Source: a virus. Taken from it: 64,000 bases of DNA. Location of the stretch: IMG/VR virus record IMGVR_UViG_3300009529_000001, positions 1 through 64,000 of that record, one strand, 5' to 3'. The position numbers and the translations under genes were made by a program. Under the pieces are notes generated by a model. It made no database searches. It saw only the letters and a program-made list of their open reading frames with translations, and had not been told where the DNA came from. Of the stretch, positions 1,945 to 27,584 are shown piece by piece. How positions within the stretch are numbered: the stretch's first letter is position 1; each line of letters starts with the position of its first letter.

Positions 1945-2593
1945 ACAATTAGAAGATTTGAAAAAATCTATATTGGGAAGTTCAGACGCAGCAAATTATT
2001 TTGAAGAAATAGAATTCCCGGATGGAACTGTTATAAAAGCAGACGTCCGGGATTTTTATGATATAGTTGATATGTTTGCAAGCAATTATGGATTAGGAGG
2101 ATGTAAGACATTAAAGGAATTTATAGAACATATTGATGAAATTGATTTAAATATATTAATTGGATTACAAGGATCTATTATAAGACGCATAGAAGCAATG
2201 TATGGTAAAAAATCTTCTTGGAAAGATCATCAAATAGAAGGACGGAAGGAAATGAAAGTACCAGAACAATTTAGACCTAAACAAAAGAACAGAATTGTTG
2301 CTGGACCTCAAGAAAAAATATTTATAGGCAAAGAATCTTCAAAGGCCGAATTACAAAAAATGGGAATGTTTTTGAAATCATGGGGTGCTCCTTATGATAA
2401 AGTCAATGAGGCTATTAATCAGATAAAGAAAGGAAAGATAGCTATACCAGACGAAGATTTTAGTTGGATAACGCCTGAAGTACTATTACATCCGAATTTT
2501 GATACTAGGCTTGTTTTAAAAGCTATGAGAAAATCAAGAGAAAAATCAATTAATTTCAATGTGGGACGCGATACTTTGAATGCGAGAAGATAA
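1910..2593 (+). CDS. Second tail assembly chaperone-like ORF (possibly a frameshift extension)
   Basis: Overlaps previous ORF in +1 frame, no clear RBS; stop overlaps tape measure ATG (TAATG). Confidence 0.5.
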   Translation: MMMKNQKRSLNEQLEDLKKSILGSSDAANYFEEIEFPDGTVIKADVRDFYDIVDMFASNYGLGGCKTLKEFIEHIDEIDLNILIGLQGSIIRRIEAMYGKKSSWKDHQIEGRKEMKVPEQFRPKQKNRIVAGPQEKIFIGKESSKAELQKMGMFLKSWGAPYDKVNEAINQIKKGKIAIPDEDFSWITPEVLLHPNFDTRLVLKAMRKSREKSINFNVGRDTLNARR

Positions 2594-5500
2594 TGCCTGA
2601 CCAAGTAATCGCTCTTACTCTAAAATTAAAAGATCGTGGGATTGCTGGCACCACTTCTAAGATGGTAAAATTGAAGGGGACTGTCAAGCAATTAGATAAA
2701 GCTTTAGCATCTGCCGCAGGATCAGGATTGAAGGGCGCTACATGGATGCGCTCTGGATATAAGAAAGCACGAGAAGAATTAAAGAATGCGGCAAAGAATG
2801 CTAAAAATTTAGAAACTGGTCTTAAAGCTGTTAATGTAGAGCTTACTAATATAGGGCGTGGAAGAGCAGGATCAACGATAGGTAAGATATTAGGAGGAAA
2901 AGATTTTGCGGCTGAACGTCGTGCAAAACTTAATGCTATAAGACGTGCTATGCGTGAAGAAGAAAGATTACGTGAACGTATGCAGCGTCAGCAAATGCAA
3001 AGGATGGCAAAACAAAGAGCAAGATTTTCAAAAATGATGATCGGTACGATTCAAACTACAGGCTTTGTAGGAATTGCTGCTGCTAGTGCATTAAAAACCT
3101 TATTTGATCCTACTAAAATTCAAGGTATATTTGGTCCTGCTCTTGGACAATTGGGTTCAGTTATTGGAAATTTGTTTGGAGAAACCATTGGTTCAATTTT
3201 AGGAGATTTAGGAAAAGCTGGTGGTGAAATTGCTGAAGCTTTATTAAATGGAATAACTGCTACTCTAAGACTTGGCGCAAGATTTTTAGGTAGTTTTTTT
3301 GAAACGTTCTTTATTGGTGTGATTGCAGCACACGGAACGATGATGGTTTCTATTCTGGTAGGCATAGTTGCAGGACTTGTAAGAGCGGTAATGGAAACTT
3401 TTACAGCTTTTGTTAAAGAAATTGTAGATTTATTTAGGTCTTTAGTCAAAGCGATTGTGGCCATTATTTCAGCATTTGTTAAGACAGTAGTAGCAATTTT
3501 TAGAGGAATAGGAAAAATAATAGTAGGAGTCTGGAAAGGAGTTTGGGCAACTCTTAAGGCTATAACAAAATTATCTGTTCAAGCTATTCTTGGTATTGTG
3601 AAAAAACTTGTAGATCAAATTGCTGTTGGTTTTAAAGAATTTGTGGCAATTCAGGTAGAAGCTGCAAAAACATTTGGCCTTGTAACAGATGTTGCAGGAC
3701 AATCGACGAGGAAGTTTGCTACTCTTGCGATGAGATTAGCAAGTGAATTTGGATTTGCAATGGGGGATATTCAAAAGACTCTATTTGATGTTACTTCGGC
3801 AGGATTTAGAACTGCTGCTAAAGGTGCAAAAATTTTAGAAAAATCTTCTATATTAGCTGTAGCTGGTGCTGCAAGTCTTTCAGGAGCTACTAAGGCTGTT
3901 GTTTCAGTTCTTAGAGCATATAGTAAAGATGCTAGTGAAGCAGATCTGGTAACAAGACAATTATTTGCAGGACAGGTATTTGCAAGAGCAACGGTTGATG
4001 AATTTGCTTCTGCATTAACAAATATTATTCCTATTGCTTCTTCTGCTGGCGTGAGTTTTGAAGATGTAACGAAAGCACTTGCAACTATTACATTGTCAGG
4101 ATTTTCTGCAAGTAGAGCCTCACGTGGATTAAGTTTGTTATTGACAGGATTGATTGCTCCTAGCGGCCAAATTCGTAAGAAGTTTGAAGGTATTGGTATG
4201 AGTTTTACAGAAATGGGGAAAAATGGGCAAATTGTTCTTAAGCCTTTGGGAGATATTATCAAACAATTGCAGAAAGTTTCCATTGCTGAGATTAGGACTG
4301 TTGCATCTCGTATTCAGTCAAGAAATGCTGTATTAGCATTAAAATCAGGTTATGAAAAATATCTTGAAATTTCACGCGATTTTGTTAAGGTAACTAAACA
4401 GCTTGATGCAGCACACAAGGGCGTAACAAAAGAATTTGATAGACAGTTTAAAATTCTTTATGGGAATATTACTGTATTACGTTCTTTACTTGTTGGGGGA
4501 TTTGCAAGAGCAATTCAGGGTCCATTTAAAGATCTTGTAGATATGATTAAAGAGATTACACAATGGTTATTAAAATCAGAAGCCGTTGAAAGATTTTTTA
4601 AGGCTTTCCAAAAATTTGCACAGCCTGTGATTGATACAATAATTGAGCCTATGAAAAAAGGACTTGATGGTATTTTAACTGTATTAAAGACTGAAGATTT
4701 TGCTAAGATTTTTGAGACAGAAACGGCGGAAAAATTTAGAGAAGCTTTATTAAAGATTGTTGAACATATTAAAAATATTCCGACCTTTTTAGTAAAGATT
4801 TTTGATACTGTATTGGATACCATTGAAATAATAAAGATTGAAGCAAAATTTATTGCGGATGTAATCTCAGGAATGTTTAAAAAATTAGCTGATCCAGAAA
4901 CTTTTGTTAAATCTTTTGATGCGTTTGCTAATGCATTTATGGATGTAATTAGTATTATAGGAAAATTTTTGTATCAAACTTTGAAAGATGTATTTCTTAT
5001 GTTGGTTGATTTTTTCAATGCTACAATTGGACCAAAAATAGTAGATTTTATAGATAAGATGGTTGATAAAGTAATTGTTGAATTGGGAACATCTTTTATA
5101 GGGAATTTACCTTTTATTGGGATGGAAGATAAAACTTTTAAGGATGCTTTGCGTAGAAAAGGTGTAAGAGAACAGGTTGGTACTCTTGAAGAAGAAATAA
5201 GAACAGGGGGTAAAGAAAAAACTAGAGAGAGATTAGAAAAAGAATTAGGAGAAACAAGAAGAGCTTTAGTAAAACTTGAAAGATCAGTCTTAAAAGGAGG
5301 CTGGAGTGGTTTACAAGCACATAAAGAACGTAAAGAACGTGAAGCTGCTATTGAAGCTGCTAAATTAAGTGTTGAAGTAGCTGAAGATCAGCTTAAAGCT
5401 TTTGCGATAGCTCTTAAAAACGTAACTGATCCTTTAGGAAGAGAGACTGCTGCTGCAAAAAGTATGATGGCAAGAATTGCTGCATTAAGAGCAACTTTTG

Positions 5501-6000
5501 GTCCTAGATTTAGAGGAGCGGCTGCTGGAGTTGGAGCGGCTGCTAAGGCTGGCGCTGGTAAAATAGGAAAAATTGTAGGTGCAGGTGAAATAACTGGATC
5601 AGCACAAGCGGCAAGAGCTACTGCATTAGGACAATTAAAGGCTAATCAAGAAAAACGTACCCAAGAAAGACTTCAAGCTGAAGCAGCAAGAAAAGAAGAT
5701 TGGGCAAGACGTAAGGCACAAATTACTACTGCTGATTGGATAGGGGAAATGGGCGTTCCGACTGTTTATGAAAAAGGTTATAAAGAAAAGAAACCATATA
5801 CGACTAGAGGTGGATTAGTTGGTTCTGAAGCTGAAAGAGAGCTTAGAGCTTCAAATAAAGCAGAATTTGATCGTCTTGTTACTATATTTCAAAATATTGA
5901 AAAAAATACAAGACGATCTGCTGAAGGTGCAATAGTTCAAGAACGTGCTGCTGCTAATATGGTGGGAGAGATGGGCGTTCCGACTGTTTATAGTGAATAA
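2593..6000 (+). CDS. Tail tape measure protein
   Basis: 1135 aa, Ala/Gly-rich helical; TP901-type core (FGFAMGDIQKTLFDVTSAGF...ASSAGVSFEDVTKALATITLSG); hydrophobic segment; position in tail module. Confidence 0.93.
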   Translation: MPDQVIALTLKLKDRGIAGTTSKMVKLKGTVKQLDKALASAAGSGLKGATWMRSGYKKAREELKNAAKNAKNLETGLKAVNVELTNIGRGRAGSTIGKILGGKDFAAERRAKLNAIRRAMREEERLRERMQRQQMQRMAKQRARFSKMMIGTIQTTGFVGIAAASALKTLFDPTKIQGIFGPALGQLGSVIGNLFGETIGSILGDLGKAGGEIAEALLNGITATLRLGARFLGSFFETFFIGVIAAHGTMMVSILVGIVAGLVRAVMETFTAFVKEIVDLFRSLVKAIVAIISAFVKTVVAIFRGIGKIIVGVWKGVWATLKAITKLSVQAILGIVKKLVDQIAVGFKEFVAIQVEAAKTFGLVTDVAGQSTRKFATLAMRLASEFGFAMGDIQKTLFDVTSAGFRTAAKGAKILEKSSILAVAGAASLSGATKAVVSVLRAYSKDASEADLVTRQLFAGQVFARATVDEFASALTNIIPIASSAGVSFEDVTKALATITLSGFSASRASRGLSLLLTGLIAPSGQIRKKFEGIGMSFTEMGKNGQIVLKPLGDIIKQLQKVSIAEIRTVASRIQSRNAVLALKSGYEKYLEISRDFVKVTKQLDAAHKGVTKEFDRQFKILYGNITVLRSLLVGGFARAIQGPFKDLVDMIKEITQWLLKSEAVERFFKAFQKFAQPVIDTIIEPMKKGLDGILTVLKTEDFAKIFETETAEKFREALLKIVEHIKNIPTFLVKIFDTVLDTIEIIKIEAKFIADVISGMFKKLADPETFVKSFDAFANAFMDVISIIGKFLYQTLKDVFLMLVDFFNATIGPKIVDFIDKMVDKVIVELGTSFIGNLPFIGMEDKTFKDALRRKGVREQVGTLEEEIRTGGKEKTRERLEKELGETRRALVKLERSVLKGGWSGLQAHKERKEREAAIEAAKLSVEVAEDQLKAFAIALKNVTDPLGRETAAAKSMMARIAALRATFGPRFRGAAAGVGAAAKAGAGKIGKIVGAGEITGSAQAARATALGQLKANQEKRTQERLQAEAARKEDWARRKAQITTADWIGEMGVPTVYEKGYKEKKPYTTRGGLVGSEAERELRASNKAEFDRLVTIFQNIEKNTRRSAEGAIVQERAAANMVGEMGVPTVYSE
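5749..5991 (+). repeat. Perfect 21-bp direct repeat ATGGGCGTTCCGACTGTTTAT (5749-5769, 5971-5991)
   Basis: Read directly; both copies encode MGVPTVY in frame, 222 bp apart. Confidence 0.95.
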
Positions 6001-6812: not shown

Positions 6813-6839
6813 GAGCTATGATAAACGTTATTGTTTTAT

Positions 6840-8735
6840 ATGAAAATATTGATATTAGATCCTGGTTTTGAATATTCCACTTTAGCAGTAGCAGAAAGCT
6901 ATTATAATGCGTTTGTGCGTCTTGGGTATGAAGTAGAAGAATATGATACGCACCATGCTTTTAGAGAAGCATCGAGATTAACGAAGTTTCAATGTCCTGC
7001 CTGTAAAGAAAATTTTAATTTTTCAGAAGAATATAATTGGAATAGACTTACTGAAATAGTAACTGCTCCTATTTTGAATATTGTCGTTCAAGATAGATTT
7101 GATGTAGTTATAGCAATTCATGGATACCATATTAATCCTGTTATTATTAATAGCATAAGAAAGATTGGATGCAAAACTGCTTTGGTTCTTACTGATGAAC
7201 CTCAACAAATGGATATAACTAAAGGTTGGAGTCAATTTTATGACTACAATTTTTCAAATGATAAAGGTACTGCTAATTATCATCACAATGGATATTATTT
7301 GCCAATGGCCGCAGACGAAAGAATATTCAAACCGCAAAAAGTATTGACAATGTATGAGTCGGATATTTTAGTTGGAGGAAGTTTTTATCGAGAACGTTTT
7401 AAATTTCTTATGGATCCTGATCTGACACAATGTATGTTCAGGCACAATACAAAATTTATTGGAGCTAGGAAAAGTAATTTTGGAAATAATGATATAAGAA
7501 ATAACTTATTTGTAGGGAATAAAATATCGTATGAAGAAATGGCAAAATATACGGCTGGTACAAAAATTAACGTCGATATACCTAGAGATGAGTTCCGTGA
7601 CGGTATATTCTTGTCTGGGAACACTAAAAAAATAAAAGCAACATGTTTAGCCCCGCGCATTTTTGAATCGCCTCTGGCAGGAGCATTAGTTCTTACGTCT
7701 GGGCAACGTCGAGATATATTTGATCTATTTCCTGAGGGAATGTTTCCAATATATGGAGATCAGAGTCACCTTACTCAATTGATTGAAGAATATCTAGGAG
7801 ATGAGGAAAAACGAAAGAAATTAGTAGAAGAACAAAGAAAATATTGTCTTGAAAATCACACTTATTATGAAAGAGCTAAAGAAATTGCAAAGGTTATGGA
7901 TTTAAGTTTAACAAGAAAAATAAGTAATACATTTGTTTGGAATAGAAAGGCAGTTAAACATTGGGAACTTATATGGCGAAAAAATTATGATTTTATGAAG
8001 AAAAAAGAATATTATAAAAATAGGAGTTTAGAAAGTCTTAAAAATCATTATAATAATGGATCAATAAATATTGTTAGTAATGGTCCTTCTTTAGAAAAAT
8101 ATGTAGAGGATTTAAATGGGAAACAAGTAATTAATATGACAGTTAATGACGCCTTCAGATATATTGATTGTCAATACTATGTAGTTATTCATCCTGACGA
8201 TGATGTATATGAAAGATGCGTAGAAGATCTAGATGATTTAAGGCATAAAGAAACAATGTTGTTAGCTTCTTCTGTAGTAAATTATAAAGTTGTGGAACAT
8301 TGGATAAAGAGAAATTTACCTGTTAAGTTTTTTGGAACATCATTAAATGAAGAAGATAGTATAAAGAGAGTAATACGTTTAGTATATAATTTTCCAATTC
8401 TTGATGCAGGATATTCAGTAGGGTATTCAGCTATAACATGTGCATTGTATATGGGGCTGACTAAGGAAATCAATGTATATGGATTAGATTTTTGTTATAA
8501 AAACATGAAACGTTATGCTTTTGAAGAGCCAATAAAGTTTAAGGATGCACTTGATAGAGAAACTATCCTACTTGAGGATGCCGAAGGAAATCCGGTTTTG
8601 ACTGATAGTGTTTTAATTAAGAGTAGAGACTTAGTTTTAGATTTAATAAGAAAAAATCCGAATACAAGATTTAATATATATGGTGGAGGATTATTGTATT
8701 CGGATAAGATAGAAAATTTAATAGTACATGTCTGA
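6840..8735 (+). CDS. Two-domain glycosyltransferase: CgeB/Glyco_trans_1_2-like N-terminal domain + Maf/DUF115-like C-terminal domain
   Basis: N-term LTDEP, LPMAAD, APRIFESPLAGA, ENHTYYERA; C-term IVSNGPSL, GYSVGYSAI...YMG...VYGLDFCY. Start taken as ATG 6840. Confidence 0.8.
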   Translation: MKILILDPGFEYSTLAVAESYYNAFVRLGYEVEEYDTHHAFREASRLTKFQCPACKENFNFSEEYNWNRLTEIVTAPILNIVVQDRFDVVIAIHGYHINPVIINSIRKIGCKTALVLTDEPQQMDITKGWSQFYDYNFSNDKGTANYHHNGYYLPMAADERIFKPQKVLTMYESDILVGGSFYRERFKFLMDPDLTQCMFRHNTKFIGARKSNFGNNDIRNNLFVGNKISYEEMAKYTAGTKINVDIPRDEFRDGIFLSGNTKKIKATCLAPRIFESPLAGALVLTSGQRRDIFDLFPEGMFPIYGDQSHLTQLIEEYLGDEEKRKKLVEEQRKYCLENHTYYERAKEIAKVMDLSLTRKISNTFVWNRKAVKHWELIWRKNYDFMKKKEYYKNRSLESLKNHYNNGSINIVSNGPSLEKYVEDLNGKQVINMTVNDAFRYIDCQYYVVIHPDDDVYERCVEDLDDLRHKETMLLASSVVNYKVVEHWIKRNLPVKFFGTSLNEEDSIKRVIRLVYNFPILDAGYSVGYSAITCALYMGLTKEINVYGLDFCYKNMKRYAFEEPIKFKDALDRETILLEDAEGNPVLTDSVLIKSRDLVLDLIRKNPNTRFNIYGGGLLYSDKIENLIVHV

Positions 8736-9783
8736 CATCAGTAAATTAATACTTGCTTTAGCCGAATATCATCCGATTGATATGAAAAGAAAAGTTGGAG
8801 GATATCATACTTTAGTACCGATTGACAGTGATGTAGATAGCGTATTTCAACCAGGATTTAAACCACCCTCAGATTTTCCAACTGATACTTTTGATCAATA
8901 TAGGAAAGTATTCTGGCGAAACCAAACAGGTAGATCTTTATCGGGAGTTCAGATATATGGATTCAATGTAAAAAGTTCTAATGTTGTTAAATTTGCTTTG
9001 GAACGTGGACCTGATGGAGTAATAACAAGAGATGGAAGTGATGCAATACGGAATTATCAGATTAGACCAACATTTTTATCCGACGGACATTTTACTGAAG
9101 TAACTACAGATAATGCTTTGTTAATCGGAGGTTCAGGAGTATTAGCACATGGATCAGGTCAAGGAGTATGGTTAAGGCAAAGAATAACAGGAACAACAGC
9201 GGAAGACGCAAGTGATAATTTTGCAATAGGAACAGTTGTTTCAGAAGTAGGATCAACTACCATTAAGGAAGAAAATATTTTCCATACAAGAATTCCTGGT
9301 CTAACTACAATATTACGAATAAGAATTGATCAGTATAATCCTATGACTATAATTGTGGATTTCAGCCATAGTCTTACGACTAACTATTACAAAACTGCGG
9401 CGGAAACACTTTATGCTTTGTATGTAGATAATAAATTTGTAAAGGAATTTACAGGAGAGATCGTAAAAGTTCAGATGCTAAGTATTGATACGATTAGTGA
9501 AGTCGATATTTATGCAATTCCACATTCAGGATTTAGACCTCATCAAGATCCTACTGATCCTGAAGAAGGAACAAGATTAGACCCTACTATTCCTGGAAAC
9601 AAAATAAGAATTAGATTTAGAGCAAAGGATTCTGGTGTATTTGATGTAGAAGCACACCATATACAGTGGGATGAAGGAACAGGAACTTTTGTAACTAAAG
9701 AAATAGGTGTAATAAATGCGGATGATGCTTCTATTAAGAGCGGATATAAGATTAAATCAAGTGAAATGATTGATCCTATTTAA
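8728..9783 (+). CDS. Virion/baseplate structural protein ending in a partial FN3-like domain
   Basis: YRKVFWRN and GVWLRQRI motifs typical of phage tail proteins; C-term GNKIRIRF...WDEGTG resembles the FN3 at the end of 12290-14341. Confidence 0.55.
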   Translation: MSDISKLILALAEYHPIDMKRKVGGYHTLVPIDSDVDSVFQPGFKPPSDFPTDTFDQYRKVFWRNQTGRSLSGVQIYGFNVKSSNVVKFALERGPDGVITRDGSDAIRNYQIRPTFLSDGHFTEVTTDNALLIGGSGVLAHGSGQGVWLRQRITGTTAEDASDNFAIGTVVSEVGSTTIKEENIFHTRIPGLTTILRIRIDQYNPMTIIVDFSHSLTTNYYKTAAETLYALYVDNKFVKEFTGEIVKVQMLSIDTISEVDIYAIPHSGFRPHQDPTDPEEGTRLDPTIPGNKIRIRFRAKDSGVFDVEAHHIQWDEGTGTFVTKEIGVINADDASIKSGYKIKSSEMIDPI

Positions 9784-9831: not shown

Positions 9832-11043
9832 ATGACTTTATCTAGAAGAGCTTTTGGCCTTGGGGGAACAGCTTTAGGATATTTAAAAGAAATAGGAGCA
9901 GGAATCGTAGGTAGAGCCGTAACTCACACCTTATATGTTTCACCGGAAGGTAGTGGAGCTGATGGATTGACTTGGGCAACTGCCTATAAGACAATTCAAG
10001 CCGCTTTAGATGCTGCTTCAACTGATGGAGATAATTTAACTTTAATAAATATTTCCCCACATACAACTAATTACGATATAAATACTACTGGCGATCCTAC
10101 ATGGACAGGAAATTATATTTTAAAAGGAAGTCACAGGAATTGGGCGAAAATTAAGAATGCGCATGGTAGTGCTACTTCTATTATGAAGTTCACTGGTAAG
10201 GTTTCATTAAAAGATTTGAATTTTAATTTAGGTTCAGGAAGTGGGAATGGCGTAATAATAACTCACGGCGGATTCAGGGTAAGAGATTGTCAATTTGTTG
10301 GAGAAGATTTAACTGGTGCGGCAACAGCGCTCCATACAGATGGCGCAACAGTATTGAAACATGGAATAATAGAAAATTGCCATTTTCTCGGAGAAGGAAT
10401 AACACATATGACGGCGCTCTTGTTGGATAAAACGGCAAGAAGCTTTATTGAAGGATGTAAAATCCACGAATGTAAAACTGGCATTCAGATAGTTGATGCA
10501 GATAGTGATGAAAATATGTTTCGTTTTATTGATATTGGTGATTCCGGTATCGGATTTGATATAGATGCCGGAAATGCTCAACATATAGAACATGTCTTAT
10601 TTCACAACAATACAACAAATATAGATGATGAAGTTGGAGATCATTTATATGATACCTTATTGGGAGAAAGTTCAGGGACAATATTATTGCCTGACGATTT
10701 TACAGGAGTAGATTTAGATACTCATGCTGATCCAGCTACTTGGGGAACTAATACGGAAATACTGGCCGCTGTGGGCAGAACCAAGCCGTTTCGAGTTATT
10801 GGAATCATAATGGAAGCAGATGCAAATGAAAAATTTAGAGTCAGACTTTCTGCGGATGGTGGGACTTCTCATTTCACAGATATTATGGTTGAAGGTGCAG
10901 CAAATGCAGCTAAAAGAGAATCAGTGCAATTGCCTCCTGGAGTTGAAGTAATTCTTAATCAGGGTATTCAAATATCTGGTTCTTCAAAGTCTGAATCAGG
11001 GAATAATACAGCTACAGTCTGGTTGGAAATACAAGAAATATAA
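9832..11043 (+). CDS. Right-handed beta-helix (pectin-lyase-like) tail spike / receptor-binding protein
   Basis: AGGAG RBS; LYVSPEGSGADGLTWATAYKTIQAALDAA cap followed by beta-helix repeats (VRDCQF, IENCHF, IEGCKI). Confidence 0.8.
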   Translation: MTLSRRAFGLGGTALGYLKEIGAGIVGRAVTHTLYVSPEGSGADGLTWATAYKTIQAALDAASTDGDNLTLINISPHTTNYDINTTGDPTWTGNYILKGSHRNWAKIKNAHGSATSIMKFTGKVSLKDLNFNLGSGSGNGVIITHGGFRVRDCQFVGEDLTGAATALHTDGATVLKHGIIENCHFLGEGITHMTALLLDKTARSFIEGCKIHECKTGIQIVDADSDENMFRFIDIGDSGIGFDIDAGNAQHIEHVLFHNNTTNIDDEVGDHLYDTLLGESSGTILLPDDFTGVDLDTHADPATWGTNTEILAAVGRTKPFRVIGIIMEADANEKFRVRLSADGGTSHFTDIMVEGAANAAKRESVQLPPGVEVILNQGIQISGSSKSESGNNTATVWLEIQEI

Positions 11044-11073
11044 GATTAAAGGAAAAACTTTGTAGGAGCAATA

Positions 11074-11634
11074 ATGGCTACTTTTACAGTCTATTTCAGT
11101 GATAGTGGTGTTGCTGCAACTGGTTTGACAGTGGCATTTGAATATCTTAAAAAGGCTAGCGATAATACCAATGTTTCAACGGCAGGAGCCACTATTGTCG
11201 AAATAGGAGGAGGTTGGTATAAAATCACAGGTTTAAATCCTGATGAGTTATGGGTAGGAGTAATGGATGGAAGTAATACTTTAGCTAATGCCGATAGATA
11301 TGTTCCAATTGCAATGGAACCTGAAGATTATAATTATGAAGCACATGGTATTCCTGTTTATAATGAAACTTCAGATCAATTGAAAATCGCAGCGTTTCTT
11401 TCAAAGAATGGACAAAGAGTTACAACAAATCTTACGAATTGTTCTATAATAGTTTACGATGAGAATCATGCAGCATTATTCACTATAACTTCTGCTTCTG
11501 CAACAAATGGCGTATTTTTTGTGACTAAGACGACTCCTAGGTTTGTCAAAAACAAGTTGTATTATGCAGCTATTACGATTACCCATGATGGCGTAGGTTA
11601 TGTTTCAACGGATGCGATTATTGCGATAGAATAA
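11074..11634 (+). CDS. Virion structural protein (Ig-like beta sandwich)
   Basis: AGGAG RBS; ATGLT...EIGGGWY motif; all-beta composition; tail context. Confidence 0.55.
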   Translation: MATFTVYFSDSGVAATGLTVAFEYLKKASDNTNVSTAGATIVEIGGGWYKITGLNPDELWVGVMDGSNTLANADRYVPIAMEPEDYNYEAHGIPVYNETSDQLKIAAFLSKNGQRVTTNLTNCSIIVYDENHAALFTITSASATNGVFFVTKTTPRFVKNKLYYAAITITHDGVGYVSTDAIIAIE

Positions 11635-12290
11635 TGAGTTTAAAGGTTTTCAATCCAAGAAAGAGGCAAGTATCTTTCTTCAGAATTAATTCAGATTATC
11701 CTTTTCGGGATAATTTGTTTGTTTCTGGAGGAAGAAGTGGAAGCATTGTTTTTTTAAATTCTGCATTAAATAATCCATATAGACATTACAAAGTAATTAC
11801 ACTTCCAGTAGCCAATGGAAGTTATAAAGTAAGAGTAGCTTCAGAAGATGCTTATGGTAATACTAATGTTCCTGGAACTGATCCTGAAGCCTATGGAGTA
11901 ATAGTTGTAGGAGTTTTTGTATTACCTCCTATAGATATAAAATTTACAGTATCTGGAAACAATGTTACATTTACGTGGGAACATCCTTCAAGTGGTGCTC
12001 CTGATGCTTATATTTTTTATGGTGGAAGAGATGGAGCAGCAATTGATAGAACTACGCCTATAGGAACCGCTGCTGGATCAGCAAAAACAAAGACTTTAAC
12101 GTTAGCAAGCGGAGTTTGGAAGATAGTTATAGAAGCTAAGATCAATTGTGATCAATGGGATATAGCACTTGGCGCTCCAAGTGCTATGAATAGAGTGGAT
12201 GTAGGAGATTCAAATCTTACAGGAGCACAAGCTACTGTAACAGATGGTGTTGATCGAGGAAATAACTCAGCTTTATGGGTATTTAGTTAA
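11634..12290 (+). CDS. FN3-containing tail protein N-part fused to the C-terminal cap of a beta-helix protein (chimeric ORF)
   Basis: FN3 motifs YKVRVASEDAYGN, VTFTWEHP, WKIVIEAK; last 45 aa (QWDI...VDVGDSN...VDRGNNSALWVFS) look like a beta-helix C-terminus. Confidence 0.75.
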   Translation: MSLKVFNPRKRQVSFFRINSDYPFRDNLFVSGGRSGSIVFLNSALNNPYRHYKVITLPVANGSYKVRVASEDAYGNTNVPGTDPEAYGVIVVGVFVLPPIDIKFTVSGNNVTFTWEHPSSGAPDAYIFYGGRDGAAIDRTTPIGTAAGSAKTKTLTLASGVWKIVIEAKINCDQWDIALGAPSAMNRVDVGDSNLTGAQATVTDGVDRGNNSALWVFS

Positions 12291-13873
12291 TGGCTAACAA
12301 TACTTGGACAAATGGAAACGGTACTAACGTTTGGAATGATGCCCTTAATTGGTCTTTAGGGCATGTTCCATTGGCTACAGAAGATGTGATATTTGATGGA
12401 ACAGATGTTGGTAACTGCACTATAGATACTTATCCAAATAATGTAGTTTCAATCGCCGTCGATGTTTTGTATACTGGACAGATCACTCAGACATGCGCGG
12501 TAGTGGTAAATGGTCCCTTCGCTTCAGCAGGCAAATGGGACTGCAACGCCAATTTTGATTGCACCAACTATACCCTAACAGCTGGCACTTTCCAAGCAGG
12601 AGCTGGAAATATCACGACAGCCGGTAATGTGGCAATGGCTACTGGTACGTTTAGTCGCCAAACTTCCACTTTTATTTTATCTGCTACTGGGACCATTAAT
12701 GCTGCGGGCATTATATTTCATAGCTTTACTCAAAATAACGGTGTAATAACAGATATATTAAGTAATGTAGTTTTTGCTACTGGCGGCATACTCACAACTG
12801 GTAATAATACTTCCACAATAAGAGCTTCTGGAGCTACTAGAACTCTTTACATTTATTCAACATTAATAAACAATGGATGTACTTGGGGCGGTGGTGGACA
12901 ATTAATGATTCTTTATATTCTTCGCCAAGACATGCCAGGTGGCAATTATGGCGATTGTCGTATTTGGTTTAGAGATACTCTAGGTGTTCCAAGAAATCTA
13001 CTTGGTAATCTTACCACTACAGAACGATTTTACATTGATAACTGGGTAGTAGGAACAGCTCAATTATCTTCAGCCGGATTTAATATTACCTGTGCGTGGT
13101 TGCGTCTTGGTCAGACCACCAATAATCTTTGTGGTAAATTAATTCTTAATCCTGGAACCACACTCCAAGTCAACGGTGATCTTACGATCTATGCCGATGA
13201 CGGAAGCTCTGAAAACGCTCTAGTCGTAGACACGGACGGCGCTAATTTGATTTATGTATCAGGCAACTGGGACATCCAAGATCCTAGTGCGGAATTTGAT
13301 GCCCAACAGTCCACTGTGATTTTCAATGGCGTAGGTGCTCAGACTATTAAGTCGAGTGGGAATGCTTTTTATGATATTCAATTAAATGATGGCGGTGCTG
13401 GTGGTTCATGGACGCTTCAAGATGCTTTAACATGTCATGATCTTACACAAACAGATGGAATACTTGATACCAAAAATGGAGTAAATAATCCTATAACTGC
13501 AAGTGGAGATATTGCATTTGATGGAGGGACACTTATTGCACGTGGAGCGACTATAACATGTCCTGGGAGTATAACTTTCGATGCGAGCTTTACATTTACT
13601 TACGGAACTTCAAAAATTTTATTGAATGGAACATCAACTCAAACCATTATGTCTAACGGAATTGCAGTTTATGATATGGAAGTAACTAATACTGAAGGAA
13701 AAATAGTTTTTGATGATGCTGTGGATATTGATAATCAATTAATAGCAAATGCTGCAACGGCTGATATTCTGATCGAATTTGATGAAAATGGCGGACATAC
13801 CATTGAAGATCTCAGTGGATTAACTGGAACAAGTCCTCACTATGTTAAACTGAGAAGTCAAGTAACTGGTGAT
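12153..13873 (+). other. Circularly permuted gene segment (1721 bp) bounded by GTGAT direct repeats (12148-12152, 13869-13873)
   Basis: In silico excision at GTGAT gives an intact 328-aa FN3 ORF plus a circle encoding a complete 573-aa beta-helix ORF closed by TAATG. Confidence 0.7.
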
Positions 13874-14341
13874 GAAAGTGAAAATTTTGATGTTCAGGAT
13901 GTGACTTTACCTTCTACTTCAGTAAAACCTCCTCAACCTGGATTACCAGCTACTTCTGATCCTAATAATACACTTGATGCAGATAATCCGTTTGTAGAAA
14001 CTGGACTTGAATTAACAAGGGTATCGGTTGGAAAAGCAAGGATTCGTTTTTATTGGTTATGGGGAAATTTAGCCACAAAATTTAGAATTTATCACAATAA
14101 TGGATCAGGAGATGTTGATTGGGTTACACATGCTTATGAATTTAATAGAGTAGATGGTATTATTCAATCCTATACGACTCTTCAGTTGAATGTAACAAGT
14201 GTAGTTCAAACATGGAAATTTGGAGTACGTGCGGTAAATTCTAATAACCAGACAGATACTAATACAGATGAGTATGAAATAGATATAGAGGGTCTTCCGC
14301 CAGATTTAATTGAAGATATTGTTTTGGATACGGTGTTATAA
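12290..14341 (+). CDS. Beta-helix adhesin-like tail protein N-part fused to an FN3 C-part (chimeric ORF)
   Basis: MANNTWTNGNGTNVWNDALNWSLGHVP start, G/T/N-rich repeats to YVKLRSQVTGD, then ESENF...GKARIRF...WKFGVRAVN FN3. Confidence 0.8.
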   Translation: MANNTWTNGNGTNVWNDALNWSLGHVPLATEDVIFDGTDVGNCTIDTYPNNVVSIAVDVLYTGQITQTCAVVVNGPFASAGKWDCNANFDCTNYTLTAGTFQAGAGNITTAGNVAMATGTFSRQTSTFILSATGTINAAGIIFHSFTQNNGVITDILSNVVFATGGILTTGNNTSTIRASGATRTLYIYSTLINNGCTWGGGGQLMILYILRQDMPGGNYGDCRIWFRDTLGVPRNLLGNLTTTERFYIDNWVVGTAQLSSAGFNITCAWLRLGQTTNNLCGKLILNPGTTLQVNGDLTIYADDGSSENALVVDTDGANLIYVSGNWDIQDPSAEFDAQQSTVIFNGVGAQTIKSSGNAFYDIQLNDGGAGGSWTLQDALTCHDLTQTDGILDTKNGVNNPITASGDIAFDGGTLIARGATITCPGSITFDASFTFTYGTSKILLNGTSTQTIMSNGIAVYDMEVTNTEGKIVFDDAVDIDNQLIANAATADILIEFDENGGHTIEDLSGLTGTSPHYVKLRSQVTGDESENFDVQDVTLPSTSVKPPQPGLPATSDPNNTLDADNPFVETGLELTRVSVGKARIRFYWLWGNLATKFRIYHNNGSGDVDWVTHAYEFNRVDGIIQSYTTLQLNVTSVVQTWKFGVRAVNSNNQTDTNTDEYEIDIEGLPPDLIEDIVLDTVL

Positions 14342-16854
14342 TGGTTCAAGCTGGTATACAATCTGGACAAAATGTGACTTCTTTCAGGAAGCATAAGGTT
14401 TTTCTATTAAGAAATAATACATTCAGTAATCTTACCAAAAGAACATCATTTCTAATGGATGGCAAAGTAAGAGAAATTAATAAAGGGATTAATGAACATA
14501 TAGACACATGTGAAATAGAATTTCCTGCGAAAGCTTTTGGAAATCACATAGGATTTAATACTCCTGTGATTGTAGCTATTGATAATGCAAGCAATATTGT
14601 GTTTAGAGGAAATCTCGTAATAGAAAAAGGAATTCTTTCAAGAACGAGCGACACACTGACTACAACTGCTTATGGATTAAAATGGTATCTTAATAAAATG
14701 TCTAAAATACGAGGGAAAATTTATACAGTTGATAATACTATTAAACCCATTTTAGGATATGACACAAATACGACGAATAGATTATTTGAAAAATTTAGAA
14801 ATCCTCCTCCAGGAGCAAATACAGCTTATGGATATTTGGGAAGTGAACGTACTGTATTTAATGTTGATGGAAAAGAAGATTCAGCAACATCTGGAGATAA
14901 TAAAGATCTTGCTATAGCGTTTAAATTTGATCCTACACAACAATATATAGAAGCTGCTGGTGCAGTAGCAATGGATGTGAAATATTTCTGGAATTATGCT
15001 ACAATTCTTATGTATATCGAAGAATGGTATATTAAACCATTTCTTAATACTTTTCTTTCTGGCGTAAAAGTGCGCATAAGTCAAAGATCTTTTGAAAAAA
15101 TATTTCGTTGGGGTGAAAAGATTGGGTTAGAAAAAATAAGACCAATCAATTTTGACATTAACGGTTTGGGTCCAGTTGAAGCAATTGATAAAGTTGTAAA
15201 AGCCATTCCTGGTCCTTGGTATTGGTATCTTAAACATAGTAAGAATGTAAGTGAAGTTGAACTTATAAACCATCTTATGAAAGACGATGTTCCAAAAGCT
15301 GTATATATTGGAAGAGATGGTAAAATATTAGATACCGATAGTGGAACAAATATAGCTGGAGCTGATGTAGAAAGAAGTATAGCCGATGCTATTGTTCATG
15401 CGGTTGTGGTAGGCGCTCCATTAAAACTTGAAACTACGCTCGAATTAATACCACGTTGGACTAGATATCTTAGACCTACTTCGGATCAAAATAAACAACC
15501 TTCTGATACTGATAATAATTATACAGAATATGAAGCTGGAGAAGTAACGAGTAGAAGATATATTTCACATTTTAAAAATCCTATTGATTATAAAAAATAT
15601 GTTGCCATGAATAAAGCTGGAGCTACTCCAGAAGTTTGGAATACTACTCAAACTGAAGATAAAGCTAAAATAACTGCTAGTGATGTTCAAAGATATGCTA
15701 GAATATTTAGAGAATTTACAGTTCCTGGATCTAAAGAAGAAATAACTAAAAATCTTGTAGATGATTTAGGATTGCATGATGATATTAGTGATGTATTTTC
15801 TGGATTTGCATCAGAAATAGAACAATTTATATTTGATAATGCTGAACGTATAAGAAAGATAGAACCTCCTGTAACTAAATACGAAACAAGTAAAGTTAAT
15901 AAGAATCTTGAACCTTCTAGACCTTTTATATTTTTATATGATGAATCTAAAACTATAGAAGCAGAAGATGAGAAACCTGCTGCCGCTGTAGGTGGTGCGG
16001 ATAAAAAAGAAGATATACTGAAAAAAATTCCTTTTATTATACCTGATGGAAGAGATAAAGACGCTTTTAAAGGTACTTATTCTTTTGAAAATGATTTTCA
16101 AGTTGTAAAATTTTCAAAACCACAATATTCAAGTGATTTACCTGATGTATTAAATGCTGATTTAGAAGGTTGGAAAAAATTTGCTAATGCAAAAACAAAA
16201 CGAGCGTTTATGACTTGTCGGATATCGTTAGATGTTCCTTTAATTGATGATTTGTTGAATGAAGAAAGAGAATTATTGTATGGCAATGGAAGATTTATAG
16301 CTTATTATATTGATGAAAAATTAGAATTTGTTTTAAGATCTTCTGCTATTTATCCTAAACCGAAAGCTTTAACTACAGGAGTTCCAGCAATAACTTATAC
16401 ATTGCCTTCAGGAACATCACAAATAGGAAGTCTTGTTATACCAACAAAAAATAGAAATTTGAATGATAAGTTTCCATTACTTGATTGGAATATGCTTAAT
16501 AGCACAGAAGATGGATTATTAGGCGAATTATTTTCACAGCAAGTTGTTAAGAGTGATCTAAAACAATTGAAACAAGCTTTGGAAGATATGCTTACAAGTG
16601 CTCCTGATTTTATAGAAAACATTTCTTTAGATCATGGAAGAGTCGATTTAAGTTTAGAAATAGGAGATCAGGTTGATAGGATTATAGGAAGTGAATTGTC
16701 AGATGGAGCGGATGGATATTATGGATTAGATTCAGTTGTAACAGGAATTAATATAACTTCTCGTGGCGATACGGAAGCATGGAAAACGCTTTCAGTATTA
16801 CGTAATCGAAGAGGATTTACTTTAGGTGATCTTAAAATAAAGGCTAGAGCATGA
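14341..16854 (+). CDS. Baseplate hub / tail-tip protein
   Basis: 837 aa; N-term DTCEIEF...VFRGNLV...TAYGLKWYL and C-term LEIGDQV...VVTGINI resemble hub proteins; synteny. Confidence 0.6.
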   Translation: MVQAGIQSGQNVTSFRKHKVFLLRNNTFSNLTKRTSFLMDGKVREINKGINEHIDTCEIEFPAKAFGNHIGFNTPVIVAIDNASNIVFRGNLVIEKGILSRTSDTLTTTAYGLKWYLNKMSKIRGKIYTVDNTIKPILGYDTNTTNRLFEKFRNPPPGANTAYGYLGSERTVFNVDGKEDSATSGDNKDLAIAFKFDPTQQYIEAAGAVAMDVKYFWNYATILMYIEEWYIKPFLNTFLSGVKVRISQRSFEKIFRWGEKIGLEKIRPINFDINGLGPVEAIDKVVKAIPGPWYWYLKHSKNVSEVELINHLMKDDVPKAVYIGRDGKILDTDSGTNIAGADVERSIADAIVHAVVVGAPLKLETTLELIPRWTRYLRPTSDQNKQPSDTDNNYTEYEAGEVTSRRYISHFKNPIDYKKYVAMNKAGATPEVWNTTQTEDKAKITASDVQRYARIFREFTVPGSKEEITKNLVDDLGLHDDISDVFSGFASEIEQFIFDNAERIRKIEPPVTKYETSKVNKNLEPSRPFIFLYDESKTIEAEDEKPAAAVGGADKKEDILKKIPFIIPDGRDKDAFKGTYSFENDFQVVKFSKPQYSSDLPDVLNADLEGWKKFANAKTKRAFMTCRISLDVPLIDDLLNEERELLYGNGRFIAYYIDEKLEFVLRSSAIYPKPKALTTGVPAITYTLPSGTSQIGSLVIPTKNRNLNDKFPLLDWNMLNSTEDGLLGELFSQQVVKSDLKQLKQALEDMLTSAPDFIENISLDHGRVDLSLEIGDQVDRIIGSELSDGADGYYGLDSVVTGINITSRGDTEAWKTLSVLRNRRGFTLGDLKIKARA

Positions 16855-23530: not shown

Positions 23531-23837
23531 TACTGATTCAGAATTTATTAGTGAACTTGCTAGAGAAATGAAAGTAAGTTTACCAAAAGCAAAAAGGTTC
23601 ATTAAAATATTTTCTGAATGCATTAAACGAGTGCTTGTTGTAAATGGTACATTAAATATTAGGAAACTAGGTTTATTTTATTTAAAGAAAAGAAAAAATA
23701 GTATTGCTAGAAATATAAGAACAGGCGAAGTTTTTAAGATTCCGTTGACAATGAGAATAATTTTTAAACCTGCTCTTTCTTTGAAACGTTCCGCTAATGA
23801 AAGAGTTAGAAAAATTCGTGATGAAAAACTTATTTAA
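23517..23837 (+). CDS. HU/IHF-family DNA-binding protein
   Basis: LNIRKLGLF...ARNIRTGEVFKIP...IFKPALSLK. Confidence 0.93.
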   Translation: MALYNTDSEFISELAREMKVSLPKAKRFIKIFSECIKRVLVVNGTLNIRKLGLFYLKKRKNSIARNIRTGEVFKIPLTMRIIFKPALSLKRSANERVRKIRDEKLI

Positions 23838-26418: not shown

Positions 26419-26585
26419 TTACTTTATGGGAAGATAAAAATTTTAGATGGGAAATTTGGGAGACAGTTTTGGTTAAAACTGCAAAAATTGTTGGATTAAG
26501 AAGAATTGGTAAAGTAAAATGTTTGGATTTGAAAATGAAATCCAAGCATCACAATTTTATATGCGAAGGATTAGTAACTTCTAAT
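26415..26585 (+). mobile_element. Split intein, C-fragment
   Basis: Blocks F/G ending Ser-Asn, +1 residue Ser. Confidence 0.9.
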
Positions 26586-27584
26586 TCCCATGCCGTATCT
26601 TATGCATTTATTTGTTATCAAACAGCTTGGCTCAAATGTTTTTATCGACAAGAATTCATGTCATGTGTAATGTCCGAATGTCAAAAGGGAGATAAGGCAA
26701 AAATTAAACTTCCTAAATGTATCCATGAATGTAAAAAATATTTTGAAATAGAAACACCCGATGTAAATTATTCCACAGATAGATTTGAACTTCTTGACAA
26801 GAAGATAATATTTCCTTTTACTACAATTAAAGGAGTAGGAGATAAAGCTGTTGATATAATTTTATTTGAAAGAAAAAAGAAATTTAAATCGTTTGAAAAT
26901 TTTTTTGAAAGAATCAATAAACGAGTGGTGAATGTAGGAATTTTAAGTAATATTATTTTAGCTGACGCATTTAGAAAGTTTGGAAAGAGGGAAGAGATAT
27001 TCGATCAGTTTATGGAACTTCGTGGTAAAGATAAGGTAGCAAGACAATTGTACTGTAATGAATGTAATTACAGATATCCTTGTGTTGTTAAAGAAGATGA
27101 AACACCGTCTTGTCCGTCTTGCGGAAGTGCAAGTGTAACTATAGATATTGATGATTGTCAGGGACAAAAATTTAATCATACATTTTGTGAAAATAATTTT
27201 GTATTTGGATTTAATGTGAAAGAAAATCCGCTTAAAAAATATTTACCTTATATGTTGAAACATAATTATCTTTCTTTGGAAGATATATTAGAAGAATTAG
27301 TGGGGAATATTGTAAAGACAATTGTAATGATTAAAGAAATAAGAAAGCATGTTGATAAAAATAATAGGGAAATGGCTTTTATTAAAGTCGGTGATTTACA
27401 TGATGATGAAGCTGATCTAGTTATATTCGGAACAGATTGGGAATATTTGAAACACAAAGTACAAAAGGATGGCCACTATAAGATAAAAATAGTCAAAGAC
27501 CAGTCGAGATGGAACGAAAATATAAATAATTTGAAATTTGATGCTAGAAGGGGTTGTAGAATTAAAAAACTAAAAGTTAAGTGA
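26415..27584 (+). CDS. dnaE: C-intein + DNA polymerase III alpha C-terminal part
   Basis: CLDL...HNFICEGLVTSN then SHAVSYAFICYQTAWLK; PDVNYS, IKGVG, OB fold (MAFIKV). Start ATG 26415, or TTG 26469 with GGGAG RBS. Confidence 0.95.
   Translation: MITLWEDKNFRWEIWETVLVKTAKIVGLRRIGKVKCLDLKMKSKHHNFICEGLVTSNSHAVSYAFICYQTAWLKCFYRQEFMSCVMSECQKGDKAKIKLPKCIHECKKYFEIETPDVNYSTDRFELLDKKIIFPFTTIKGVGDKAVDIILFERKKKFKSFENFFERINKRVVNVGILSNIILADAFRKFGKREEIFDQFMELRGKDKVARQLYCNECNYRYPCVVKEDETPSCPSCGSASVTIDIDDCQGQKFNHTFCENNFVFGFNVKENPLKKYLPYMLKHNYLSLEDILEELVGNIVKTIVMIKEIRKHVDKNNREMAFIKVGDLHDDEADLVIFGTDWEYLKHKVQKDGHYKIKIVKDQSRWNENINNLKFDARRGCRIKKLKVK

What the first reader, a model, noticed from the sequence alone, without database searches (positions are those of the whole stretch)
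11634..14341. Two tail genes with swapped C-termini: a circularly permuted beta-helix gene inside an FN3 gene
Seen: ORF 11634-12290 runs as FN3 to ...WKIVIEAKINCD, then continues QWDIALG...VDVGDSN...VDRGNNSALWVFS*. ORF 12290-14341 runs as a beta-helix to ...GTSPHYVKLRSQVTGD, then continues ESENFDVQDVTLP... plus another FN3. Both switch points fall on the same in-frame 5-mer GTGAT (12148-12152, 13869-13873). Exchanging there gives (a) a 328-aa FN3 protein (11634-12152 + 13874-14341) with the usual F-strand-'ES'-G-strand ending, and (b) a 573-aa beta-helix protein (12290-13873 + 12153-12290) ending LRS...G.QW.I...VDV.DSN...VD.GNN..W.F, which I recognise as a common contiguous C-terminus of this protein type. 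The 1721-bp segment, closed into a circle, is exactly one ORF whose TAA overlaps its own ATG (TAATG 12288-12292). Inference: either (1) a gene minicircle (DNA, or excised circular RNA) that integrates or excises at a microhomology, i.e. a receptor-binding-protein shuffling/unscrambling system, or (2) a fixed insertion giving two chains that complement each other in trans and graft a spike onto an FN3 loop. A 5-bp repeat is too short to explain this as an ordinary assembly-graph permutation. No recombinase is visible in the window.
Basis: partly seen in the sequence, partly recalled or inferred. Interest (0 to 1): 0.9.

Follow-up and report, generated by a model that had tools for sequence, protein, structure and literature searches.

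The report
Spike gene inserted back-to-front inside tail gene
In a 110-kb phage from a metagenome, a complete beta-helix spike gene, written in circularly permuted order, sits inside a fibronectin-type tail gene, so the two resulting genes have exchanged their tail ends and probably make two chains that must lock together; no relative shows this arrangement.

Summary
ORF1 (11634-12290) and ORF2 (12290-14341) are reciprocal chimeras. Exchanging them at the in-frame GTGAT copies (12148-12152, 13869-13873) rebuilds two proteins. One is a 328-aa tandem-FN3 protein, collinear without a gap with 22 of 23 aligned intact homologs. The other is a 573-aa right-handed beta-helix, collinear without a gap with 10 of 10 homologs.

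All seven related contigs checked carry the FN3 gene intact. In the three with enough flanking DNA it lies at the same place in the tail module, and none of those three holds the helix gene. The window state is therefore derived.

The simplest origin is one reciprocal crossover at a 5-bp microhomology between the FN3 gene and a one-gene circle closed at TAATG, the phage's usual gene junction.

Both break points fall in loops: the FN3 F-G loop, and a loop before the last rungs of the helix. Conserved residues are kept and the split FN3 gene shows no faster decay. I therefore favour a fixed insertion giving two chains that complete each other's folds and graft the spike onto the scaffold.

The dynamic minicircle reading is unsupported. 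The genome encodes no tyrosine or serine recombinase or Y1 transposase, and no second instance was found. The scan has not noted this elsewhere.

The parts
11634..12152 (+). 5' part of the interrupted FN3-type tail gene (aa 1-173: N-terminal region plus strands A-F of the first FN3 domain)
   Evidence: 52% identity, ungapped, to aa 1-168 of the intact homolog P0002. The F strand and F-G loop were mapped on the AF2 model of P0002.
12148..12152 (+). Left copy of the GTGAT microhomology (crossover site)
   Evidence: Read directly in the sequence.
12153..13873 (+). Inserted 1721-bp segment: one beta-helix gene in circularly permuted order (3' end, TAATG, 5' part)
   Evidence: Absent from the syntenic site in L005, L006 and L007. 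It closes into one 573-codon ORF that is collinear with its homologs.
12153..12290 (+). Helix gene 3' end: 45 codons (the last rungs of the solenoid) plus TAA, now fused to the FN3 5' part as the end of ORF1
   Evidence: Matches the near-C-terminal module of P0005, P0039, P0025, P0017, P0011, P0014 and others. It corresponds to strands 430-452 and onward in the P0039 model.
12162..12187 (+). Perfect 11-bp hairpin with a 4-nt loop, 10 nt inside the left junction; role unknown
   Evidence: Found. It is one of three perfect hairpins of 11 bp or more in 110 kb and is absent from the homologous DNA of L008 and L009.
12217..12240 (+). Second hairpin (10-nt arms, 90% complementary); role unknown
12288..12292 (+). 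TAATG stop/start overlap between ORF1 and ORF2; it is also the closure point of the one-gene circle
   Evidence: TAATG is the junction of 16 same-strand gene pairs in this genome.
12290..13873 (+). Helix gene 5' part (aa 1-528 of a right-handed beta-helix)
   Evidence: phmmer hits P0005 (E 6e-70), P0008, P0011, P0014, P0017 and others. The fold was modelled on the contiguous homolog P0039 (pLDDT 90) and matches pertactin, tailspikes and adhesins at Z 13-16.
13869..13873 (+). Right copy of the GTGAT microhomology
   Evidence: Read directly in the sequence.
13874..14341 (+). 3' part of the interrupted FN3 gene (G strand of the first FN3, Pro-rich linker, second FN3 domain), now the end of ORF2
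   Evidence: 52% identity to P0002 aa 164-327. About 30 proteins of 285-352 aa match it at their own C-termini.

Best explanation
A fixed rearrangement in a tail-module gene.

Origin (inferred). An ordinary one-gene cassette encoding a 573-aa right-handed beta-helix spike or adhesin was bounded by the phage's usual TAATG stop/start overlaps. It was closed into a circle, or copied as one unit from a tandem or rolling source. It then recombined once, Campbell-fashion, with the FN3 gene at a shared GTGAT.

Result (shown). There are two translationally coupled chimeric genes:
- ORF1 = FN3 N-part (strands A-F of the first FN3 domain) + the last 45 aa of the helix.
- ORF2 = helix aa 1-528 + the FN3 G strand, a linker and the second FN3 domain.

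Function (inferred). The two chains assemble into an obligate heterodimer by reciprocal complementation.
- The ORF1 tail stacks on and caps the open end of the ORF2 helix.
- The ORF2 segment supplies the missing G strand of the ORF1 FN3 domain, much as a donor strand completes a pilin fold.
- This rivets a foreign spike to a conserved tail scaffold protein that relatives carry without it.
For: - Both parental families are contiguous everywhere else. That covers 23 aligned FN3 homologs, 7 FN3 loci, and 10 helix homologs with no indel at the junction.
- Three related phage contigs keep the order 186-aa gene, intact FN3 gene (307-311 aa), about-830-aa gene. None holds a helix gene anywhere.
- Five base pairs are identical at both junctions. 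Each parent needs its own copy to stay in frame.
- TAATG is a standard junction in this genome.
- The break points map to the F-G loop of FN3 (P0002 I173|Q174, pLDDT about 92). On the helix side they map to loop 424-429 between two strands of the solenoid (P0039, pLDDT 92-94).
- Structural alignments of the helix model to solved beta-helices extend to residues 470-483. The tail is therefore part of the solenoid.
- All the residues invariant in the helix-homolog alignment that fall in the tail are kept.
- The split FN3 halves are only about 2 points less identical to 8 outgroups than the intact sister P0002 is.
- GC3 next to both junctions is host-like, 0.13-0.16.
- ORF1 and ORF2 were each recovered identically by two sources, JGI/IMG and Logan.
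- In relative L005 the neighbouring scaffold gene is also split by an insertion, and a lectin-like domain is fused to its C-terminal half.
Against: - Complementation was not tested. No multimer prediction was possible and there are no expression or virion data.
- Only one genome shows the arrangement. Conservation of the halves could therefore simply mean the event is recent.
- The circular intermediate is inferred from topology alone.
- No donor copy of the helix gene was found in relatives.
- The helix here lacks the 15-25-aa disordered C-terminal extension of its homologs.
- The hairpins just inside the left junction are unexplained.
Confidence: 0.62

Rival explanations
1. A recent accidental insertion that is neutral or harmful. 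One or both chimeric products are non-functional, and the phage tolerates the loss of the FN3 protein or of the spike.
For: Only one genome carries the arrangement. With no close relative, intact frames and conserved residues could reflect recency rather than selection.
Against: - The FN3 gene is kept intact and syntenic in every relative seen, which suggests it matters.
- Both breaks fall in loops and both frames are preserved.
- Junction-proximal GC3 is host-like, while other parts of the helix gene are not. This argues for residence time.
- The genome assembled as a complete record with direct terminal repeats.
Confidence: 0.2
2. A dynamic system. The 1721-bp unit excises and re-integrates as a DNA minicircle, or leaves as a circular RNA. 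This switches the phage between spike-grafted and intact-FN3 states or shuffles receptor-binding genes.
For: The topology is exactly that of an integrated circle with a 5-bp core. A strong hairpin lies 10 nt inside one end. The genome is rich in other mobile elements such as an intein (earlier notes).
Against: - No Phage_integrase, Resolvase or Y1_Tnp match was found in the whole genome.
- Five base pairs is too short for known site-specific systems.
- No Rfam intron or other RNA family matches 11000-15000.
- No second insertion was found at this or any other site in about 30 family members and 7 loci.
- There are no terminal inverted repeats.
Confidence: 0.05
3. Same end state but a different origin, with no free circle. 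One route is copying of one unit length (helix 3' end, TAATG, helix 5' part) from two tandem helix genes by template switching or a double crossover at GTGAT. Another is two separate patch exchanges between neighbouring FN3 and helix genes, using GTGAT and TAATG as microhomologies.
For: Helix modules occur as tandem repeats in giant homologs, with up to 19 matched stretches per protein. Tail-like modules recur inside P0007. GTGAT and TAATG flank both exchanged segments.
Against: This needs a tandem donor with a stop/start between the copies, or four crossovers at 5-bp repeats where the circle route needs two. No tandem helix genes were seen in this genome.
Confidence: 0.1
4. An artefact of metagenome assembly or amplification.
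For: The genome is a metagenome-assembled contig, and no reads could be inspected.
Against: - A 5-bp repeat cannot join assembly graphs.
- The result is a perfectly reciprocal, in-frame pair of junctions rather than a single chimera.
- Both chimeric proteins were recovered identically by JGI/IMG and by the Logan re-assembly.
Confidence: 0.02
5. Restoration at the RNA or ribosome level: splicing out of the 1721 nt, or translational bypass from GAT (12150-12152) to GAT (13871-13873).
For: The take-off and landing codons match, and a hairpin lies just downstream of the first, superficially like T4 gene 60.
Against: The gap is 1721 nt, against about 50 nt in the gene 60 case (abstract of bioRxiv 10.1101/2022.08.31.505936, seen). 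No stop codon follows the take-off codon. No group I or group II intron was found by Rfam. The insert is itself a conserved coding sequence.
Confidence: 0.01

Closest known systems
Genes-in-pieces created by gene insertion in phages (Aeh1 nrdA split by mobE; T4 gene 39/60; phage 25 gene 43), reviewed in PMC2988022
   Same: A contiguous phage gene is cut into two ORFs by an inserted gene. According to the review, the fragments must reassemble and do so functionally in Aeh1 NrdA. TAATG-type coupling is also described there.
   Different: In those cases the insert is a self-contained homing endonuclease gene, and the host fragments simply end and restart. Here the insert is a structural gene with no endonuclease. 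It is itself cut and permuted, so each host fragment is fused in frame to a piece of it.
Fractured genes: split intein plus free-standing endonuclease (Dassa et al. 2009, PMC2677866)
   Same: Each half of the host gene is fused to one half of an inserted protein module, and association of those halves brings the host halves together. The arrangement is found mainly in phage.
   Different: Intein halves keep their order (N-part with the N-extein), and they splice and leave. Here the order is swapped (the helix C-piece sits on the host N-part). There are no intein motifs, and no splicing is expected. The association would be permanent and structural.
Campbell integration with attP inside a gene (integration-dependent immunity of mycobacteriophage BPs, PMC4557955)
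   Same: A reciprocal crossover of a circle inside a coding sequence changes the C-terminus of the encoded protein.
   Different: That system uses an integrase and a defined attP/attB pair, and it is reversible and regulatory. Here there is no recombinase, only 5 bp of identity, both partners are structural genes, and both fusions stay in frame.
Donor-strand complementation of Ig-like pilins (chaperone-usher pili; from general knowledge)
   Same: An Ig/FN3-like fold that lacks its G strand is completed by a strand from another chain.
   Different: This resemblance is inferred here, not shown. The donor is a spike protein and the exchange is reciprocal, because the acceptor chain also caps the donor's helix.
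Branched tailspike assemblies (for example CBA120 TSP1-4; from general knowledge, structures hit)
   Same: Extra beta-helix spikes are hung on a virion scaffold.
   Different: Those spikes use dedicated N-terminal docking domains rather than a swap of chain ends between the spike and the scaffold.

Membership tests
Unnamed tandem-FN3 tail-module protein family (about 300-350 aa; alignment A1) | Collinear sequence match over the whole length | tested here: met
   The rebuilt 328-aa sequence aligns with no junction indel in 22 of 23 members. It is 50-54% identical to P0002 in both halves.
Unnamed tandem-FN3 tail-module protein family (about 300-350 aa; alignment A1) | Same place in the tail module (after the 186-aa gene, before the about-830-aa gene) | tested here: met
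   L005, L006 and L007 share the synteny.
Unnamed tandem-FN3 tail-module protein family (about 300-350 aa; alignment A1) | Two FN3 domains | tested here: met
   The P0002 model matches tandem FN3 pairs in the PDB at probability 1.0, E 4e-9. Pfam itself gives no FN3 hit for the window ORFs.
Unnamed tandem-FN3 tail-module protein family (about 300-350 aa; alignment A1) | Encoded as one uninterrupted ORF | tested here: not met
   The gene is split at aa 173|174 by 1721 bp.
Right-handed beta-helix spike/adhesin family with the QW.../VDV.DSNL/VD.GNN..W.F end (no Pfam model) | Beta-solenoid fold | tested here: met
   The contiguous homolog P0039 was modelled at pLDDT 90.1. VIA-align gives Z 15.6 to pertactin and 13-15 to phage tailspikes. 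Foldseek alone was not significant.
Right-handed beta-helix spike/adhesin family with the QW.../VDV.DSNL/VD.GNN..W.F end (no Pfam model) | Conserved terminal module directly after ...LRS-x5 | tested here: met
   It is present, but on ORF1. The junction is ungapped in 10 of 10 homologs, and the invariant residues are kept.
Right-handed beta-helix spike/adhesin family with the QW.../VDV.DSNL/VD.GNN..W.F end (no Pfam model) | N-to-C order on one chain | tested here: not met
   The gene is permuted and sits on two chains.
Genes-in-pieces by homing-endonuclease insertion | Host gene cut into two ORFs relative to its relatives | tested here: met
Genes-in-pieces by homing-endonuclease insertion | The insert encodes a homing endonuclease | tested here: not met
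   Pfam and PHROGs give no nuclease hit. The whole insert is accounted for by the helix gene.
Split intein / fractured gene | Intein N and C splicing motifs flanking the break | tested here: not met
   No Intein or Hint hit at E<=1 in ORF1 or ORF2. The same library does find the intein in this phage's DnaE.
Site-specific integrative element | Recombinase (tyrosine, serine or Y1) in the element or the genome | tested here: not met
   PF00589, PF00239 and PF01797 give no match in 109,578 bp, and the control genomes respond. A host-encoded enzyme cannot be excluded.
Transposon with a 5-bp target-site duplication | The direct repeat is a duplicated target, and the element has terminal inverted repeats or a transposase | tested here: not met
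   The helix ORF needs its own GTGAT copy to keep frame and length (1719 nt = 573 codons; no gap against 10 homologs). No terminal inverted repeats were found.
Self-splicing intron | Group I or group II core structure | tested here: inconclusive
   No Rfam match at E<=1 in 11000-15000 apart from a chance-level cis-regulatory hit.
Programmed translational bypass (T4 gene 60 type) | Short coding gap (about 50 nt) with a stop after the take-off codon | tested here: not met
   The gap is 1721 nt, and CAA follows the take-off GAT.

The most novel reading that the evidence does not exclude
The 1721-bp unit is a live one-gene cassette. It leaves and enters genes as a circle at a short core sequence, helped by its subterminal hairpin and a host or unrecognised enzyme. 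This would give phages a recombinase-free way to move receptor-binding genes into scaffold loops and to switch them on and off.
Probability: 0.05. Interest if true: 0.9.

Novelty: new variant of a known kind. Interest (0 to 1): 0.62.

Why it matters
This is a clean natural record of how a phage can gain a new spike. A single illegitimate crossover places a whole gene, back to front, inside a scaffold gene. The stop/start inside the insert turns what would be an impossible single-chain permutation of a long beta-helix into two chains that can interlock.

If the interlock is real, it is a new way to attach receptor-binding proteins to a virion, by reciprocal strand and rung complementation instead of a docking domain. 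It would also be a natural template for engineering split, self-assembling spike-scaffold pairs.

It is also a caution for annotation. Both ORFs look like ordinary multidomain proteins, and their true parentage is invisible without comparison to relatives.

Tried and rejected
Searches that gave nothing:
- Pfam and PHROGs on ORF1, ORF2 and neighbours gave no family for either ORF.
- tblastn against GenBank phages found no match.
- Single-protein scans of IMG/VR with ORF1, ORF2 and P0002 found no relatives.
- Rfam on 11000-15000 found nothing.
- The ESM Atlas search returned only unnamed viral clusters.
- The scan's earlier notes, searched by words and by sequence, hold no similar case.

Tools that failed:
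The DNA and context of P0002, the closest intact FN3 homolog on a 57-kb Logan contig, could not be fetched. Nor could the second contig that holds ORF1 and ORF2.
- Foldseek of the helix model against the PDB was not significant. VIA-align was needed instead.

Readings considered and rejected:
- P0144, whose phmmer stretch seemed to span the junction, is only a low-identity repeat alignment and not a helix-FN3 fusion.
- A 5-bp target-site duplication does not fit (see the membership test).
- A -1 frameshift fusing ORF1 to ORF2 is unlikely. No slippery heptamer lies before TAATG, and a single chain would have to join the two distant ends of a solenoid.
- Intron, intein and bypass readings were rejected as set out under the rivals.
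Full report
**What is in the sequence**

ORF1 (11634-12290, 218 aa) and ORF2 (12290-14341, 683 aa) are adjacent on the + strand and share a TAATG stop/start overlap at 12288-12292. GTGAT occurs in frame at 12148-12152 and at 13869-13873, and the segment between the crossover points is 1721 bp. The window is the first 64 kb of a 109,578-bp IMG/VR virus record with direct terminal repeats, rated complete. The region lies in the tail module, downstream of a tape-measure gene (PhageMin_Tail, 2593-6000) and upstream of the replication genes.

**Is ORF1/ORF2 really a pair of swapped chimeras?**

Yes.

- A word-index search with ORF1 found P0002, an intact 327-aa protein on a 57-kb contig.
- P0002 aligns at 52% identity to ORF1 aa 1-168 (E 6e-64) and at 52% to the last about 165 aa of ORF2 (E 2e-53).
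- An exhaustive phmmer search with ORF2 against 1.84 billion representatives separated two unrelated sets of hits.
  - About 30 proteins of 285-352 aa match only ORF2 aa about 520-683, at their own C-termini.
  - Many beta-helix proteins, from 466 aa up to giant multi-repeat proteins, match only aa 1-528.
- The 45 aa that end ORF1 (12153-12287) match those same helix proteins near their C-termini. Examples are P0005 at 726-769 (54% identity, E 7e-13), P0039 at 429-475, P0025 at 435-478 and P0017 at 401-446.
- The rebuilt helix aligns without a gap through position 528|529. For example, P0039 reads VQLRSQVGANQWDCALT where the rebuilt sequence reads VKLRSQVTGD|QWDIALG.
- In multiple alignments the junction has no indel in 22 of 23 FN3 homologs and in 10 of 10 helix homologs.

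**Which state is ancestral?**

The intact state is ancestral.

- Three related phage contigs (L005, L006, L007; one of 110 kb) keep the same order: tape measure, 270-aa gene, w8728 homolog, 186-aa gene, intact FN3 gene (307-311 aa), about-830-aa gene, SNF2 helicase.
- None of the three has a helix or tail homolog anywhere on the contig.
- Five JGI metagenome loci were returned. One is the same contig as L005, so four are new, and all carry the FN3 gene intact.
- The helix module occurs contiguously in other phages, for example inside large proteins of L008 and of a 264-kb phage, L009.

The window state is therefore derived and so far unique.

**Artefact?**

Unlikely. A 5-bp repeat cannot mislead an assembler. 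The arrangement is perfectly reciprocal and in frame. The exact ORF1 and ORF2 sequences are each held by two sources, JGI/IMG and the Logan re-assembly. Reads could not be inspected.

**Origin**

The topology A-g-D-t-C-g-B, where g is GTGAT and t is TAATG, is what one reciprocal crossover gives between a circle (C-g-D-t) and a linear gene (A-g-B).

- TAATG is not special to this unit. It joins 16 of about 98 same-strand gene pairs in this genome, including both flanks of the FN3 gene.
- A normal cassette bounded by two TAATGs could therefore loop out at those 5-bp repeats and re-enter at GTGAT.
- That route needs two microhomology crossovers. Patch-exchange routes need four.
- Copying one unit from tandem helix genes is a possible alternative.
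- A transposon-style 5-bp target duplication is excluded. The helix ORF needs its own GTGAT to keep frame and length (1719 nt = 573 codons, with no gap against its homologs). There are also no terminal inverted repeats.
- No tyrosine integrase, serine recombinase or Y1 transposase is encoded in the genome, although the searches respond in control genomes.
- Rfam finds no intron in the region.

**Where the cuts fall in the folds**

- AF2 of the intact FN3 homolog P0002 has mean pLDDT 75.8, and the FN3 domains score above 90. It shows the first FN3 domain at about 100-186, a Pro-rich linker, and the second FN3 domain at 219-311. The model matches tandem FN3 pairs in the PDB at probability 1.0.
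- The window's break corresponds to I173|Q174 of P0002. That position lies in the F-G loop, between the F strand (160-170) and the G strand (181-185).
- AF2 of the contiguous helix homolog P0039 (pLDDT 90.1, pTM 0.88) is an all-beta solenoid.
- VIA-align gives Z 15.6 to pertactin and 13-15 to phage tailspikes and adhesins. The aligned ranges run to residues 470-483.
- The break corresponds to N428|Q429 of P0039, in the loop between strands 419-423 and 430-434. The 45-aa tail therefore forms the last rungs of the helix.

So ORF1 is an FN3 domain that lacks its G strand and carries the helix end-cap. ORF2 is a helix with an open end that carries the missing G strand and the second FN3 domain. 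A long solenoid has distant ends, so a single-chain permutant could not fold. The stop/start inside the insert is what makes the arrangement structurally possible. This last point is an inference.

**Signs of maintained function**

- All residues that are invariant in the helix alignment and fall in the tail are kept.
- The two FN3 halves are on average only about 2 points less identical to eight outgroups than the intact sister P0002 is.
- GC3 is host-like in the FN3 parts, in the tail and in the last 530 nt of the helix part (0.13-0.16). It is raised to 0.30-0.38 in 12290-12740 and 13040-13340. This looks like a mosaic with later exchange in the distal part of the spike.
- In relative L005 the neighbouring scaffold gene (the w8728 homolog) is also split by an insertion, with a lectin-like domain fused in front of its C-terminal half. 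That case shows no sign of permutation.

None of this proves complementation. With no close relative, recency cannot be excluded.

**Comparison with known cases**

- Phage genes-in-pieces (Aeh1 nrdA/mobE, T4 39/60, gene 43; PMC2988022) share the split host gene and fragments that must reassemble. There the insert is an intact endonuclease gene.
- Fractured genes (PMC2677866) share host halves fused to halves of an inserted module. They keep the order of the halves and they splice.
- Integration-dependent immunity (PMC4557955) shares a C-terminus changed by integration. It relies on an integrase and att sites.

I found no description of a permuted structural gene inside another gene that gives two in-frame reciprocal chimeras. 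The full-text searches made here are not exhaustive.

**Verdict**

The fixed-insertion, trans-complementation reading is the best supported (about 0.6). A non-functional accident comes next (about 0.2). A dynamic minicircle system is not supported (about 0.05). I class it as a new variant of phage split-gene arrangements, of moderate to high interest.

Noticed in passing
window 12162-12187 and 12217-12240: There are two hairpins inside the 135-nt helix-tail coding stretch. The first has a perfect 11-bp stem and is one of three such hairpins in 110 kb; the other two look like intergenic terminators. Four hairpins of 10 bp or more lie in 11692-12364, against about 0.6 per kb genome-wide. Homologous tail-coding DNA in L008 and L009 has none. 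The RNA fold of 12141-12300 gives z = -2.1. The role is unknown: a coupling or pausing signal, or a DNA structure that favoured the break.
   Followed up: partly
window 12290-13873: GC3 is mosaic within the helix gene: 0.36-0.38 at 12290-12740, 0.30-0.38 at 13040-13340, and 0.15-0.16 from 13340 onward. Neighbouring genes are at 0.13-0.22. This suggests later exchange of the distal parts of the spike.
   Followed up: partly
L005 3708-6240: In a related phage the homolog of window gene 8728-9783 is split. A 179-aa ORF holds its aa 4-168. A 181-aa ORF follows. Then a 480-aa ORF carries a lectin-like (LamG-looking, judged by eye) N-domain, acidic EEESEFDI repeats, and the homolog's aa 183-348. In L007 the same gene sits inside a 1632-aa protein with an in-frame insertion of about 180 aa.
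   Followed up: partly
window 9832-11043: A second beta-helix gene (Pfam Beta_helix, E 3e-6) lies between 8728-9783 and 11074-11634. It has no counterpart in L005, L006 or L007, so it is another spike specific to the window.
   Followed up: partly
helix homologs P0039, P0017, P0005, P0011, P0014 and others (C-termini): The homologs carry a further 15-25 aa after the W.F motif. This stretch is variable and is predicted to be disordered in P0039 (aa 478-491). The window's helix stops right after WVFS.
   Followed up: no
window 23797-27584: The DnaE-type polymerase is in two ORFs. The first ends in an intein N-part (Pfam Intein_splicing and Hint at aa 778-855).
   Followed up: partly
window 6831-8735: A fusion of Glyco_trans_1_2 and MptE-like (Maf-type) domains lies inside the tail module. 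It is conserved in L005 (41% identity).
   Followed up: no
P0002 aa 1-99 (corresponding to window 11634-11930): The N-terminal region of the FN3 family is poorly modelled (pLDDT below 50 for aa 1-47). By sequence it looks like only the last strands of an Ig-like domain. It may be completed by another tail protein.
   Followed up: no
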